Assembly (NCBI GenBank): GCA_965140785.1 | Contig: OZ223505.1 | Span: 32,001-96,000 of the forward strand | Direction: 5' to 3' | DNA from: an uncultured Ruficoccus sp. | GTDB taxonomy: Bacteria > Verrucomicrobiota > Verrucomicrobiia > Opitutales > Cerasicoccaceae | Length of the DNA: 64,000 bases | Made by a program: the position numbers and the translations under genes | Notes under the pieces: model-generated | The model's input: only the letters and a program-made list of their open reading frames with translations | Told to the model about the DNA's origin: nothing | The model's database searches: none | Part shown: piece after piece, positions 26,188 to 64,000 of the stretch | Layout: each line of letters starts with the position of its first letter | How positions within the stretch are numbered: the first letter of the stretch is position 1

Positions 26188-26419
26188 ATTAACCGCAAAG
26201 ACGCAAAGGACGCTAAGCGCTACCGCTGTTAGGCGATAGCATACGAATGGCGGTACGCCTTCTTAACAAGCAAACGCCCAAGATCCCTTTTTATTGGGAT
26301 ATTTCTCTTTTCACCCGGAACGACAAGTAACGGTCAGAGTTTAGACTATCTTAAATAAAGATGAGGGGCACCAATCAATAGCGCCAGCGCTTTGCGTCCT
26401 TCGCGCCTTTGTGGTTAAT
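26188..26419. repeat. Element with about 40-bp periodic inverted arms and an AT-richer interior of about 150 bp
   Basis: attaaccgcaaagacgcaaaggacgctaagcgctaccgct ... agcgccagcgctttgcgtccttcgcgcctttgtggttaat. Confidence 0.85.
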
Positions 26420-26427
26420 CCTCTCCC

Positions 26428-26469
26428 CATTGGCCATTGACTAATGACCCATGACCGAGGACAAATGAC
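26428..26469. repeat. Heptamer tandem repeat (6 degenerate units)
   Basis: cattggc-cattgac-taatgac-ccatgac-cgaggac-aaatgac. Confidence 0.7.
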
Positions 26470-26478
26470 TCCTTTCCC

Positions 26479-27512: not shown

Positions 27513-27782
27513 TTAACCGCAAAGGCGCGAAGAGCGCAAAGCGCTGACGCTCGAATGCCATCGTGCTGCTGTTTCTGAACGGAATAATTGTCAGCCTGTT
27601 GGTGGGCGGGAGAGTTTAAGACTATAGGCAGATGCACGGCCTGCCCCTTGCGTAGCCATGCATACGCCCAGTCAGCCCTAAAAATCAACTGGGGTGACCG
27701 CCTCGATGAAAGGCTGTGGAAATTCGGCGAGCCCACGAGCCATAGCGTCAGCGCTTTGTGCGCTTTGCGTCTTTGCGGTTAA
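27513..27782. repeat. Element with 39-bp periodic inverted arms and an interior of about 190 bp
   Basis: ttaaccgcaaaggcgcgaagagcgcaaagcgctgacgct ... agcgtcagcgctttgtgcgctttgcgtctttgcggttaa. Confidence 0.85.
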
Positions 27783-51715: not shown

Positions 51716-52273
51716 GGGGATTAACCGCAAAGGCGCAAAGGCGCAAAGGTGAATGTTGCAGGAGTTAGGGGGAGCGGGTTGGCCTTTTTAGCGGCTAAGG
51801 ACGACACGCCGGATGCCTTGTTTGATTAACGGGGTGTTAAAGTTAATCAAAAGACCGAGCTGGTTGCCGGTTAATTTAAGATAAGTGAGCAACTGGGCTT
51901 GATGAATGGGTGCTAGTTCTTCGATCGCCTTGATCTCGATGATGATCTTTTTTTCGATCCAAATGTCGAGCCTGAGTCCGGCATCAAGTTCCACTCTATC
52001 ATAGACCACGGGAAGGTGAACTTGTGTCTCTATTCCGAGATTTTGTTTGGCTAGTTCATGGGCAAGACACTTTTTATATACCGATTCGAGCAGGCCGGGA
52101 CCGAGTGCCGTATGCACTTTATAGGCACAGTCTACGGCAATTTTAGCCAAGGAGTTTTCCAGTTCCAACGGCATTCCCATTAATGTCTTCTACAAAGACC
52201 GAAAGCACCAAGACGGTAAAGCCAGAAGTCAATTGCCCTCCTTGGCGCCTTTGCGTCTTTGCGGTTAATCCCC
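51716..52273. mobile_element. Putative mobile element: 34-bp periodic inverted arms enclosing one GxxExxY gene
   Basis: ggggattaaccgcaaaggcgcaaaggcgcaaagg ... ccttggcgcctttgcgtctttgcggttaatcccc (2 mismatches); AT-richer interior. Confidence 0.7.
51788..52180 (-). CDS. GxxExxY protein (predicted PD-(D/E)xK nuclease fold)
   Basis: VHTALGPGLLESVY, RLDIWIEKKIIIEIKA, HQAQLLTYLK, GLLINF. Confidence 0.93.
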   Translation of the reverse strand: MGMPLELENSLAKIAVDCAYKVHTALGPGLLESVYKKCLAHELAKQNLGIETQVHLPVVYDRVELDAGLRLDIWIEKKIIIEIKAIEELAPIHQAQLLTYLKLTGNQLGLLINFNTPLIKQGIRRVVLSR

Positions 52274-52278
52274 CCAAC

Positions 52279-52306
52279 AAAAAAGCCCCGGCGCTTGGCC
52301 GAGGCT
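52279..52306 (-). terminator. Terminator after ppdK
   Basis: agcctcggc-caagc-gccggggct followed by a T-run on the minus strand. Confidence 0.7.
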
Positions 52307-52335
52307 CTTGAAAGGTGCGGAACGCTCTGCGCGGG

Positions 52336-56047: not shown

Positions 56048-56185
56048 CCCTCCTTCTCGTTTGTTTGGATAGTCTGGAGTTCGACCACGGCTTTTTTCGC
56101 AGTGGCAGGACTTGCTTTAAAAACCAGTTCAGCCGAGTGCGACAGATTATACCGATTTCAGCCAGGAATGATAAAATACCTATTT

Positions 56186-56262
56186 CCCGCGAAGCCACGC
56201 GAAGATACGCAAAGTCGATGAGGAAGTGATTCACTTCGTGTTCCTTCGCGTAACTTCGCGGG
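56186..56262. repeat. Element with inverted arms of 10-nt periodicity (empty)
   Basis: cccgcgaagccacgcgaagatacgcaaag ... cttcgtgttccttcgcgtaacttcgcggg. Confidence 0.75.
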
Positions 56263-63912: not shown

Positions 63913-63953
63913 ATTTAACCGCAAAGGCGCAAAGGACGCAAAGCGCTGCCGCT
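63913..63953. repeat. Left arm of another periodic inverted-arm element (partner presumably beyond the window)
   Basis: atttaaccgcaaaggcgcaaaggacgcaaagcgctgccgct, near-identical to the arms at 26188 and 27513 and likewise preceded by cg(t)n-a. Confidence 0.8.
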
Positions 63954-64000
63954 GGGTTTCGACAGCCATCGAACTCCCGTTTCCTGCCGGGCTGAATCGG

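What the first reader, a model, noticed from the sequence alone, without database searches (positions are those of the whole stretch)
51716..52273. GxxExxY gene precisely enclosed by the best-conserved periodic inverted arms: putative autonomous copy
Seen: 34-bp arms with only 2 mismatches and an 8-nt period flank a single AT-richer 130-aa gene. The unit is inserted between the ppdK terminator and 10 nt upstream of the hflX start. The arms match the gene-less elements at 26188, 27513 and 63913. Established: GxxExxY proteins are small, often multi-copy, of unknown function, with a predicted PD-(D/E)xK fold (here RLD...IEIK). Inference: the protein binds or cuts the arms and drives spread of the cassette, a transposase-free mobile unit. 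Alternatively it is cargo moved by a factor encoded elsewhere.
Basis: partly seen in the sequence, partly recalled or inferred. Interest (0 to 1): 0.85.

Follow-up and report, generated by a model that had tools for sequence, protein, structure and literature searches.

The report
Nuclease gene inside periodic hairpin arms
A small nuclease gene of unknown function sits between two mirror-image arms built from an 8-base word; most genes of this large family that I sampled are packaged this way, and the unit behaves as a slowly mobile cassette that I could not find described in print.

Summary
Two 34-nt inverted arms (2 mismatches, three 8-nt CGCAAAGG units after a TTAACC end) enclose one 130-aa GxxExxY/PF13366 gene, between a ppdK terminator-like hairpin and a point 10 nt before the hflX start.

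The packaging is a family trait. Periodic inverted arms flank:
- 5 of 5 GxxExxY genes in this genome;
- 60 of 77 relatives from many phyla (2 of 289 displaced controls);
- 37 of 40 in related genomes.

Gene-less arm pairs of the same type are scattered through the genome.

Mobility is shown for a paralogous cassette: its site is empty in 4 of 4 congeners and it carries an 18-bp target duplication. The focal copy is old and vertically inherited (same site in 2 congeners, dN/dS about 0.1). Arms are conserved while element interiors have drifted.

My reading is a REP/RAYT-like or Ssn/NTS-like pairing of a PD-(D/E)xK nuclease with its own hairpin repeats. Action of the protein on the arms is inferred, not shown.

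Against autonomy, the same architecture, with another unit class, encloses 23S-rRNA-IVS four-helix-bundle genes (61 of 76 loci) and unknown ORFs.

This scan has noted the same arrangement before on other DNA (254 and 578 earlier notes). My literature searches found no description.

The parts
52240..52273 (.). Arm on the ppdK side (upstream of the ORF in gene orientation). On the minus strand it reads GGGGATTAACC + GCAAAGAC/GCAAAGGC/GCCAAGG.
51716..51749 (.). Arm on the hflX side (downstream of the ORF): GGGGATTAACC followed by three 8-nt CGCAAAGG units. It ends 10 nt from the hflX start codon.
51788..52180 (-). GxxExxY protein gene, 130 aa, PD-(D/E)xK fold (G29, E32, Y35, D72, E82, K84, Q96). 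It is co-directional with ppdK and hflX and has 46.6% GC.
52181..52239 (-). 59-nt leader between the upstream arm and the start codon. It is part of the cassette interior.
51750..51787 (-). 38-nt trailer between the stop codon and the downstream arm.
52281..52309 (-). Terminator-like hairpin (12 pairs, then a U run) after ppdK, directly outside the cassette. Context only.
   Evidence: not called by the consensus scan
26189..26418 (.). Gene-less element with arms of the same type. It is present at the same site in three congeners, with conserved arms and an unalignable interior.
27513..27782 (.). Gene-less element with arms of the same type, also present at the orthologous site in congeners.
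63915..64000 (.). Left arm of a further gene-less element of the same type. It runs off the window end.

Best explanation
SHOWN. The locus is a 558-bp 'periodic-arm cassette'. It holds one GxxExxY gene (PF13366, a minimal PD-(D/E)xK nuclease with intact D...ExK) between two inverted arms. Each arm has a short TTAACC end and three 8-nt CGCAAAGR units. This packaging is the normal state of the family.

Such cassettes are gained and lost between species of one genus. One insertion is clean and carries an 18-bp target duplication. The focal copy, however, is an old, vertically inherited one whose ORF is under strong purifying selection.

Gene-less arm pairs of the same unit type are scattered in intergenic regions. 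Their arms are kept far above the neutral level while their interiors drift. They are abundant only in related genomes that also encode a protein of the same subfamily.

INFERRED (about even odds). The protein is a sequence-specific nuclease or binding protein that reads the C-R-C-R-R-A-G units of its own arms. It most likely does so when the arms are folded back on each other or are single-stranded, for example at replication forks.

By nicking there it triggers copying, conversion or re-insertion by host replication and repair. That would keep the arm family alive, as RAYT does for REP/REPIN sequences and as the GIY-YIG nuclease SsnA relates to its NTS hairpins. Strand joining must come from the host, because this fold only hydrolyses.

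The cassette needs read-through transcription from the operon it sits in. When the arms pair in the RNA they may also insulate the host genes.
For: Family-wide packaging:
- 5 of 5 PF13366 loci of the genome have periodic inverted arms. The proteins are only 32-38% identical and each has a different unit.
- 60 of 77 loci from many phyla have a flanking inverted repeat of score 28 or more, against 2 of 289 displaced controls.
- 37 of 40 further loci from related genomes do too.
- Units follow one pattern, CRCRRAG plus 1-4 nt.

Dispersed gene-less copies:
- The 21-nt arm core gave 44 hits at up to 4 mismatches, against 1 for the reversed pattern. These form 10 distinct facing pairs, 9 of them gene-less.

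Mobility:
- The C3 cassette is absent from 4 of 4 congeners, with a clean junction and an 18-nt duplication.
- The C10 cassette is absent in G001 and G002. The C25 cassette is absent in G001, G002 and G004. The C39 cassette is absent in G001.
- Copy number is 2 to 7 within the genus.

Function kept:
- dN/dS is 0.09-0.12 with dS 0.35-1.26 for the focal ORF against G001 and G002.
- G29, E32, Y35, D72 and K84 are invariant in 78 sequences.
- The model has pLDDT 93.8, and its best fold matches are PD-(D/E)xK nucleases.

Arms constrained:
- At an orthologous gene-less element in 4 species the arms align and the interior does not.
- Both arms of one element changed together at 10 positions. Pairing a left arm with another species' right arm gave 0-4 concordant positions per element, about 3.7 summed over the three elements.

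Cognate link:
- All 12 of 31 related genomes with 10 or more CGCAAAGR-CGCAAAGR hits encode a homologue at least 43% identical.
- The 9 genomes without PF13366 have 0-2 hits.
- On the protein tree the unit type needs 48 changes, against a mean of 60 (minimum 55) in 500 shuffles.

Cargo-specific arm class:
- Four-helix-bundle cassettes use AGTYNNN units, not CRCRRAG.

Orientation:
- Where both neighbours point the same way, the cassette gene agrees with them in 34 of 38 loci.

Precedent:
- The NTS-ssnA-NTS architecture has proven ssDNA cleavage next to the hairpin repeat (PMC11893778; section 7 and passages read).
Against: - No binding or cleavage data exist.
- Linkage alone would make protein and arms co-vary. 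Inside the close cross-phylum subfamily the unit variant does not follow the protein tree: 24 changes against 24.3 in shuffles.
- The genome holds arm families with no resident GxxExxY gene (CGCGAAG, CACGAAG, CACGGAT, CACAGAT types). Congeners do carry genes with such arms, and the assembly is 91% complete.
- Arms of CACAGAG and CACGAAG type enclose ORFs with no Pfam match.
- In G003 the focal site keeps the arms but holds a different 177-aa ORF.
- The same architecture works for a non-nuclease four-helix-bundle protein.
- 9 of 60 loci have the arms turned inside out relative to the gene.
- A target duplication was seen in only one clean case. A scan of 60 loci found no general duplication.
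- The related genomes compared are kin, so the counts across them are not independent.
Confidence: 0.5

Rival explanations
1. Passenger model. The periodic arms are the real repeat element, a MITE- or REP-like hairpin propagated by a host or unlinked factor. GxxExxY, four-helix-bundle and other small ORFs are cargo that became resident in the loops. The nuclease has another job, for example defence or repair.
For: - Unrelated cargo sits in the same architecture: PF05635 at 2 of 2 loci of this genome and at 61 of 76 loci elsewhere, against 2 of 148 controls.
- Two unknown ORFs lie in CRC-type arms.
- G003 has the same site and the same arms with a different ORF.
- Arm families exist without a resident gene.
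- A hydrolase of this fold cannot perform strand transfer (established knowledge).
Against: - The arm unit class is specific to the cargo family across many phyla: CRCRRAG for GxxExxY and AGTYNNN for four-helix-bundle genes.
- About 80-90% of sampled GxxExxY genes are packaged this way, too many for casual cargo.
- Gene-less CGCAAAG arms are abundant only where a cognate protein is encoded.
- The only Y1-transposase-like genes in the genome are two identical copies with their own, non-periodic 27-nt inverted repeats.
Confidence: 0.22
2. Domesticated repeat-directed nuclease. The cassette no longer moves. The protein cuts single-stranded DNA next to arm hairpins and so modulates recombination or uptake of DNA at the many arm sites, as SsnA does at NTS repeats. 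Host-level selection keeps both protein and arms.
For: - The focal cassette has been inherited vertically at one site over dS of about 1, with dN/dS about 0.1.
- Arms of orthologous gene-less elements are conserved in 4 species.
- The family is almost absent from the mobile replicons searched: 0 of 50,697 phage records and 7 of 72,556 plasmid records.
- The SsnA precedent applies (PMC11893778).
Against: - Cassettes do turn over within the genus, including a clean recent insertion.
- There are 2-7 divergent paralogues per genome, each with its own arms.
- Near-identical arm types occur in distant phyla, which points to horizontal spread.
- There is no functional data.
Confidence: 0.15
3. RNA-level element. 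The arms matter mainly as a double-stranded RNA stem that RNase III cuts, as in ORF-bearing intervening sequences of 23S rRNA. That would let the cassette sit inside operons harmlessly and would release its own mRNA. The nuclease would be unrelated to the arms.
For: - The whole cassette RNA folds with the arms paired into a stem of about 38 bp (z = -3.8).
- Cassettes lie between a stop codon and the next start codon inside operons. Where both neighbours point the same way, the cassette gene is co-oriented with them in 34 of 38 loci.
- Both arms of an element change concordantly.
- IVS stems are cut by RNase III in Coxiella (PMC4990558, abstract read).
Against: - It does not explain the short repeated units, or why unit class follows the encoded protein family.
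- It does not explain why gene-less arm pairs persist with conserved arms.
- A terminator-like hairpin lies just upstream of the focal cassette.
- No RNA data were available.
Confidence: 0.12

Closest known systems
REP/REPIN sequences with their RAYT genes (REP-associated tyrosine transposases, Y1 HUH family; PMC3116915 and PMC3337134 seen in the search listing with abstract starts)
   Same: - One small gene is bracketed by inverted copies of a dispersed palindromic repeat.
- Gene-less doublets lie in intergenic regions.
- Each gene lineage has its own repeat.
- Vertical persistence is long.
   Different: - The enzyme is a PD-(D/E)xK hydrolase, not an HUH Y1 transposase. It cannot form the covalent intermediate that cuts and rejoins DNA.
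- Arms are arrays of three or more short tandem units, not a single imperfect palindrome.
- There are several divergent paralogues per genome.
- Near-identical arm types occur across phyla.
NTS/SRM hairpin repeats with Ssn nucleases (GIY-YIG; PMC11893778, outline, section 7 and passages read)
   Same: - A small single-domain nuclease gene is flanked on both sides by the hairpin repeat.
- That repeat also occurs in many gene-less copies.
- Repeat abundance tracks presence of the gene.
- Many nuclease-repeat pairs exist, each with its own specificity.
   Different: - The fold is different (PF13366, no GIY-YIG match).
- Arms are periodic arrays that pair with each other across the gene, not one 28-nt oriented hairpin.
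- Activity on the arms is untested here.
ORF-bearing intervening sequences of 23S rRNA (S23p/PF05635 ORF; Coxiella IVS, PMC4990558, abstract read)
   Same: - A small ORF is enclosed by inverted arms that form a long stem.
- The unit is a discrete insertion acquired horizontally and then kept vertically.
- In this genome PF05635 genes sit in the same kind of periodic-arm cassette.
   Different: - The focal element lies between protein-coding genes, not in rRNA.
- It carries a nuclease rather than a four-helix-bundle protein.
- Its unit class is CRCRRAG rather than AGTYNNN.
IS200/IS605 'peel and paste' elements and MITEs (recalled, and mentioned in PMC11893778)
   Same: - Hairpin ends can be recognised as single-stranded DNA.
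- Non-autonomous gene-less derivatives exist.
   Different: - No transposase family is present.
- An 18-bp duplication was seen once, whereas IS200/IS605 makes none (recalled).

Membership tests
GxxExxY protein / PDDEXK_3 (TIGR04256, PF13366) | Profile match above the curated cut-off | tested here: met
   PF13366 scored 141.4 bits against a cut-off of 22. TIGR04256 scored 144.7 bits against a cut-off of 35.
GxxExxY protein / PDDEXK_3 (TIGR04256, PF13366) | G-x-x-E-x-x-Y motif and the D...E-x-K catalytic triad of the PD-(D/E)xK fold | tested here: met
   G29, E32, Y35, D72 and K84 are invariant and E82 is at least 90% conserved in 78 sequences. The model has pLDDT 93.8, and its top structural matches are PD-(D/E)xK nucleases, Z 6-8.2.
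REP/RAYT system | The flanked gene is a Y1 HUH transposase (PF01797) | tested here: not met
   The gene is PF13366 only. The genome's two PF01797 matches are identical 309-aa genes with their own non-periodic 27-nt inverted repeats.
REP/RAYT system | Gene bracketed by inverted copies of a repeat that also occurs as dispersed gene-less doublets | tested here: met
Ssn/SRM system | GIY-YIG nuclease domain | tested here: not met
   The Pfam scan at E up to 0.01 lists PF13366 alone.
Ssn/SRM system | Site-specific cleavage of single-stranded DNA beside the repeat | not testable with these tools
   This needs purified protein and oligonucleotide substrates.
23S rRNA intervening sequence | Insertion inside a 23S rRNA helix | tested here: not met
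   The cassette lies between ppdK and hflX. Rfam finds only one tRNA in the window.
23S rRNA intervening sequence | ORF enclosed by an inverted-repeat stem | tested here: met
23S rRNA intervening sequence | Excision of the stem by RNase III | not testable with these tools
   No RNA data were available.
Classical insertion sequence | Encodes a DDE, HUH, serine or tyrosine transposase | tested here: not met
   There is only one ORF, and it is PF13366.
Classical insertion sequence | Terminal inverted repeats plus a target-site duplication | tested here: inconclusive
   Inverted arms are present. An 18-bp duplication flanks the paralogous C3 cassette. None is recognisable at the focal copy, and none is general in 60 loci.

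The most novel reading that the evidence does not exclude
GxxExxY proteins would be a third, independently evolved class of repeat-associated nucleases, after RAYT/REP and Ssn/NTS. Each subfamily would read its own 7-11-nt word (a C-R-C anchor plus a variable purine-rich part) presented three or more times on a folded arm. That would make the family a natural library of small, differently programmed structure- and sequence-specific nucleases.

Unrelated four-helix-bundle 'IVS' proteins live in the same kind of cassette with their own word class. So there may also be a general pathway in bacteria, without a transposase and driven by host replication or repair, that moves hairpin-bounded gene cassettes into the gaps between operon genes and into rRNA.
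Probability: 0.3. Interest if true: 0.85.

Novelty: new variant of a known kind. Interest (0 to 1): 0.7.

Why it matters
PF13366/TIGR04256 is a large family with no known function. One phmmer pass found 18,995 clusters at 50% identity with E up to 0.001, and the 2012 PD-(D/E)xK survey lists its function as 'Unknown' (PMC3424549, passage read).

Tying the family to a defined DNA partner, its own periodic arms, turns 'unknown function' into a bench test: does the protein bind or cut its arms, and in which form?

It would also explain a class of short tandem-unit hairpin repeats that litter intergenic regions in many phyla. It links them to the 30-year-old puzzle of ORF-bearing rRNA intervening sequences. 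If specificity is set by the unit word, the family could supply compact sequence-specific nucleases.

Tried and rejected
- **Solved structures by sequence:** nothing meaningful (best E 0.011, an LRR artefact).
- **Rfam:** a whole-window search at gathering scores found only a tRNA, so the arms match no curated RNA family.
- **Terminator scan:** the consensus scan did not call the ppdK hairpin; folding did.
- **Empty focal site within the genus:** not found. G001 and G002 are occupied and G003 has the arms with other cargo. G004 gave no match to the locus at all in two searches, which shows nothing. Other genera have hflX next to ppdK with unrelated intergenic content, so no clean empty site exists.
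- **Empty sites for gene-less elements:** two are occupied in all congeners that matched. One is absent in G001 and one probably absent in G004, but the surrounding intergenic DNA has diverged too far to read the ends or a duplication.
- **General target duplication:** of 60 loci only L025 had a long direct repeat. It turned out to be a duplicated flank plus arm, not a simple duplication.
- **Sequencing runs:** no RNA holder was listed. Laying contigs of three runs showed the source contig and fragments but no form lacking the cassette, and parts without cover prove nothing.
- **Homodimer prediction:** no verdict.
- **Phage records:** no match.
- **Considered and dropped:**
  - Integron cassette: no single attC hairpin after the ORF, and the loci are scattered between housekeeping genes.
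  - CRISPR-like array: the units abut without spacers.
  - RAYT in trans.
- **Literature:** 'GxxExxY' is held by 3 papers (2 listed) and 'PDDEXK_3' or 'PF13366' by 2 papers. I also searched IVS-protein names, nuclease, inverted-repeat and heptamer terms, PDDEXK with REP or hairpin terms and STRR heptamers. From the listings, and from the passages read in two of these papers, none appears to describe GxxExxY genes inside repeat arms. Subscription journals and bioRxiv supplements were not searchable.
Full report
**Observation**

- The repeat finder reports arms at 51716-51749 and 52240-52273: 34 nt, 94% complementary, 490 nt apart. A direct count gives 2 mismatches.
- Each arm is GGGGATTAACC followed by three 8-nt units. 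TRF calls period 8 with unit CGCAAAGG.
- A 26-nt arm pattern has 3 matches in the window at up to 3 mismatches and none in 100 shuffles.
- Between the arms lies one ORF, 51788..52180 on the minus strand, 130 aa. It matches PF13366 PDDEXK_3 (2.1e-41) and TIGR04256 GxxExxY (1.4e-42).
- The ORF has 46.6% GC, against 64-66% for its neighbours.
- Pfam confirms the neighbours as hflX and ppdK. All three genes are on the minus strand.
- The arm starts 10 nt from the hflX start codon.
- A 12-bp hairpin with a U run follows ppdK at about 52281-52309. The simple terminator scan missed it.

**The packaging is a property of the protein family**

The genome is 4.36 Mb in 50 contigs and about 91% complete. 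It has five PF13366 loci, one of them frameshifted. All five are bracketed by inverted arms made of short tandem units, but the words differ:
- CGCAAAGG (focal copy);
- GCGGATGAAAC (contig C3);
- a GGAAGGAC-like unit (C25);
- CACAAAAAGG, with a complete small hairpin element on each side (C10);
- CACAGAGG (C39).

The four intact proteins are only 32-38% identical to one another.

I then fetched 80 loci encoding relatives from one-genome-per-species contigs. They came from Verrucomicrobiota, Planctomycetota, Bacteroidota, Acidobacteriota, Cyanobacteria, Chloroflexota, several proteobacterial classes and others.
- Of the 77 loci with both flanks, 60 have a flanking inverted repeat scoring 28 or more. 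So do only 2 of 289 windows of the same geometry displaced within the same loci.
- The arms are again 3 or more units of 8-9 nt.
- The same TCACGCAAAGGCGCAAAGG type recurs in Nostoc, Verrucomicrobiota, Desulfobacteraceae, Planctomycetota and Bacteroidota.

The 40 best PF13366 matches in 30 related genomes cover more divergent subfamilies. Of these, 37 have such arms.

Across all sets the units share one pattern: a C-R-C anchor followed by R-R-A-G/T and 1-4 further bases.

**Gene-less copies**

- The 21-nt arm core occurs 44 times in the genome at up to 4 mismatches, against once for the reversed pattern. The hits form 10 distinct facing pairs 130-550 bp apart. Nine of these pairs are gene-less.
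- A genome-wide scan paired TRF arrays with a reverse-complement partner within 750 nt. It found 63 arrays with a partner, against 6 with a reversed, non-complemented control. A few of the 63 are AT-rich low-complexity stretches on odd contigs.
- The arrays fall into many unit families and are often nested in one another.

**Age and selection at the focal site**

- Same-genus genomes G001 and G002 carry the cassette at the same site, with 85% and 87% identity over the 1.4-kb query.
- The ORF gives dN/dS 0.09-0.12, with dS 0.98-1.26 against G000 and 0.35 between G001 and G002. The focal copy is therefore old, vertically inherited and kept functional.
- G003 has the hflX-side arm and a remnant of the other arm. 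Its interior is a different 660 bp with a 177-aa ORF that has no Pfam match.
- G004 gave no match to the locus in two searches, which shows nothing.
- Other genera keep hflX next to ppdK with unrelated intergenic content.

**Mobility**

- *C3 cassette.* It lies between an upstream gene (no Pfam match for the fragment held) and ActD of alternative complex III. It is absent from all four congeners at a clean junction. In G000 the 18 nt CCATCAGTGGTGCCCTCC stand on both sides. The duplicated piece holds the overlapping stop and start of the two host genes, so the cassette ORF starts at the duplicated ATG, reads through both arms and ends at the duplicated stop.
- *C10 cassette.* It replaces a 38-40-nt intergenic spacer seen in G001 and G002.
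- *C25 cassette.* It is present in G003 and absent in G001, G002 and G004.
- *C39 cassette.* It is present in G002 and G003 and absent in G001.
- *Copy number.* It ranges from 2 to 7 in the genus. 22 of the 31 genomes searched (G000 and 30 relatives) have the family, and the small genomes lack it.
- *Target duplication.* A scan of 60 loci for direct repeats outside the arms found no general duplication. The one 18-nt case (L025) is a duplicated flank plus arm.

**Arms are constrained, interiors are not**

- The gene-less element at window 26189-26418 sits at the same site in G001, G002 and G003. About 40 nt of each arm align almost perfectly, while the interior of about 150 nt does not align. 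That is as expected for neutral DNA at dS near 1.
- Across three orthologous gene-less elements, both arms of the same element carry the same departure from the consensus at 10 positions. There are 22 one-arm changes and 5 discordant ones. Pairing left arms with right arms of other species gives 1-4, 0-2 and 0 concordant positions for the three elements.
- This is suggestive, not strong, evidence that the arms pair or convert each other.
- As RNA, the whole cassette folds with the arms paired (z = -3.8).

**Link between protein subfamily and arm type**

- Among the 31 genomes (G000 and 30 relatives), the 12 with at least 10 matches to CGCAAAGR-CGCAAAGR (1 mismatch allowed; reversed control 0-5) all encode a protein at least 43% identical to the focal one.
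- The 9 genomes with no PF13366 match have 0-2 matches. The 5 with only distant paralogues have 0-4. These genomes are kin, so the counts are not independent.
- On a FastTree of 91 proteins the 7-nt unit needs 48 changes, against a mean of 60.0 (minimum 55) in 500 label shuffles.
- In the subset from relatives plus this genome it needs 19, against 25.7 (minimum 22).
- Within the close cross-phylum subfamily there is no signal: 24 against 24.3.
- Linkage alone would produce co-variation, so this supports a cognate relation but does not prove recognition.
- Several arm families that lack a gene in G000 have genes with matching arms in congeners. Examples are CGCGAAG in G002 and G003 and CACGAAG in G003 and G008.

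**The protein**

- An alignment of 78 sequences has G29, L31, E32, Y35, D72, K84 and N113 invariant. H23, E82 and Q96 are at least 90% conserved.
- The AlphaFold model is confident (pLDDT 93.8).
- Foldseek's best matches are Cas4 SSO0001, lambda-type exonucleases and Hjc, at weak E-values.
- An all-against-representatives structural search gives only PD-(D/E)xK nucleases at the top: the BpuSI nuclease domain (Z 8.2), 3ijm, CinB and Cas4, all at Z 6-8. That is the generic fold and points to no particular subfamily.
- Q96-x-x-x-Y100 resembles the RecB/Cas4 motif; this is my recollection, not a test.
- One phmmer pass over 1.84 billion representatives finds 18,995 proteins at E up to 0.001 and 6,300 at 1e-10. 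The top hits include 270-295-aa proteins with two GxxExxY domains. In the three of these I fetched (P0001-P0003), the second domain has lost the catalytic residues, which hints at a dimeric working unit (by reading).
- The family is absent from 50,697 phage records and present in 7 of 72,556 plasmid records.

**What weakens the 'autonomous' reading**

The same architecture holds other genes.
- Both PF05635 (23S rRNA intervening-sequence protein, four-helix bundle) genes of this genome lie in periodic arms with GTTTGAG and GTGCTTA units. One of them sits between two sulfate-assimilation-like genes (named by reading only).
- Of 76 PF05635 loci with both flanks, from many phyla, 61 have flanking inverted repeats scoring 28 or more, against 2 of 148 controls. 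Their units are of another class, A-G-T-Y plus 3-4 bases.
- Two further cassettes in G000 (C14:33637-34115 and C25:205129-205547) hold ORFs of 132 and 106 aa without a Pfam match, in CRC-type arms.
- A hydrolytic nuclease cannot join DNA, so any movement needs host functions (established knowledge).
- The genome's only Y1-transposase-like genes are two identical 309-aa copies with their own non-periodic 27-nt inverted repeats. No RAYT accounts for the arms.
- In 9 of 60 loci the arrays point away from the gene rather than towards it.

On the other hand, each cargo family has its own unit class in many phyla. That is hard to square with random cargo. It suggests that each encoded protein, nuclease or not, works with its own arms.

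**Orientation**

With crude ORF calling, the two neighbours point the same way in 38 of 60 loci. The cassette gene agrees with them in 34 of those 38. An inverted-repeat cassette is symmetric, so this bias must come from selection for expression or against antisense transcription. It fits dependence on read-through from the host operon.

**Comparison with what is known**

- The closest systems by function are REP/REPIN-RAYT (listing and abstract starts) and the NTS-ssnA-NTS arrangement of the GIY-YIG nuclease SsnA. SsnA cuts single-stranded DNA beside its hairpin repeat (PMC11893778; outline, section 7 and passages read).
- The closest by layout are ORF-bearing 23S rRNA intervening sequences, whose stems RNase III cuts (PMC4990558, abstract read).
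- The focal element is not a member of any of these. The enzyme family differs from both nuclease systems, and the location and cargo differ from the IVS.

**Literature and earlier scan notes**

- I found no paper that describes GxxExxY genes inside repeat arms.
- The two papers I opened for the family name mention it only in passing: as a domain call next to an RT gene (PMC8934634, passage) and as 'Unknown' in a table (PMC3424549, passage).
- This scan's own earlier notes report the same arrangement many times on other genomes: 254 notes for GxxExxY and 578 for the IVS-protein query. My counts here are independent re-tests on this genome and on freshly fetched loci.

**Verdict**

- The cassette architecture is a robust, widespread feature of a large uncharacterised nuclease family, and I found no description of it.
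- The focal copy is an old resident, not a recently active element.
- The most likely mechanism is a cognate nuclease-repeat partnership acting on folded arms, at about even odds. It awaits a simple binding and cleavage test.

Noticed in passing
G000 contigs C47:64233-64754 and C26:43700-44130 (loci L167, L168); loci L171-L250: Both PF05635 (23S rRNA intervening-sequence, four-helix-bundle) genes of this genome sit in periodic inverted arms of another unit class (GTTTGAG, GTGCTTA). Of 76 relatives from many phyla, 61 have such arms against 2 of 148 controls, with units of the form AGTYNNN.
   Followed up: yes
G000 C14:33637-34115 (L169) and C25:205129-205547 (L170); G003 locus L015 about 640-1300: CRC-type periodic arms also enclose ORFs of 132, 106 and 177 aa that have no Pfam match. 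The 177-aa ORF occupies the very hflX-ppdK site, within the same arms, in a congener.
   Followed up: partly
L019 (G000 contig C3) 925-1419: This cassette's ORF starts at a duplicated copy of the host's overlapping stop/start (ATGA), reads in frame through both arms and ends at the second copy. The 18-bp duplication thus preserves translational coupling of the two host genes, the downstream one being ActD.
   Followed up: partly
window 56180-56262: A short hairpin element has arms of 10-nt CGCGAAGNNA units and four further copies on other contigs. No GxxExxY gene with such arms is in this assembly, but congeners G002 (L162) and G003 (L156) have one.
   Followed up: partly
window 26425-26475: A run of 7-nt units (CATTGGC, CATTGAC, TAATGAC and others) directly abuts the gene-less element. 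Its first 20 nt are conserved in all four congeners. Similar GGTCATT arrays occur elsewhere in the genome.
   Followed up: no
G000 C10:480126-481055 and C43:224705-225634: Two nearly identical 309-aa genes have a weak Y1_Tnp (PF01797) match. Each is bracketed by its own 27-29-nt non-periodic inverted repeat. This looks like an active IS-like element unrelated to the periodic arms.
   Followed up: partly
proteins P0001-P0007: There are two-domain GxxExxY proteins of 270-295 aa. In the three read (P0001-P0003) the second domain has lost the E of the motif and the D...ExK residues. That makes a pseudo-dimer, which hints that the single-domain proteins work as dimers.
   Followed up: partly
loci L023-L102: Cassette genes are co-oriented with the surrounding genes in 34 of the 38 loci where both neighbours point the same way, although the inverted-repeat arms themselves are symmetric.
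   Followed up: partly
G000 contigs C9, C28, C41, C44, C20, C15: These contigs have 28-49% GC in a genome of about 60% GC. They may be foreign islands, plasmids or contamination of the assembly.
   Followed up: no
L016 (G008) and L013 (G007), hflX-ppdK spacer: In other genera the same spacer holds a GC-rich hairpin followed by runs of CTGCTA/CTACTA-like units, and in two genomes a thioredoxin-like gene (named by reading only). This is another periodic repeat type at the same hot spot.
   Followed up: no
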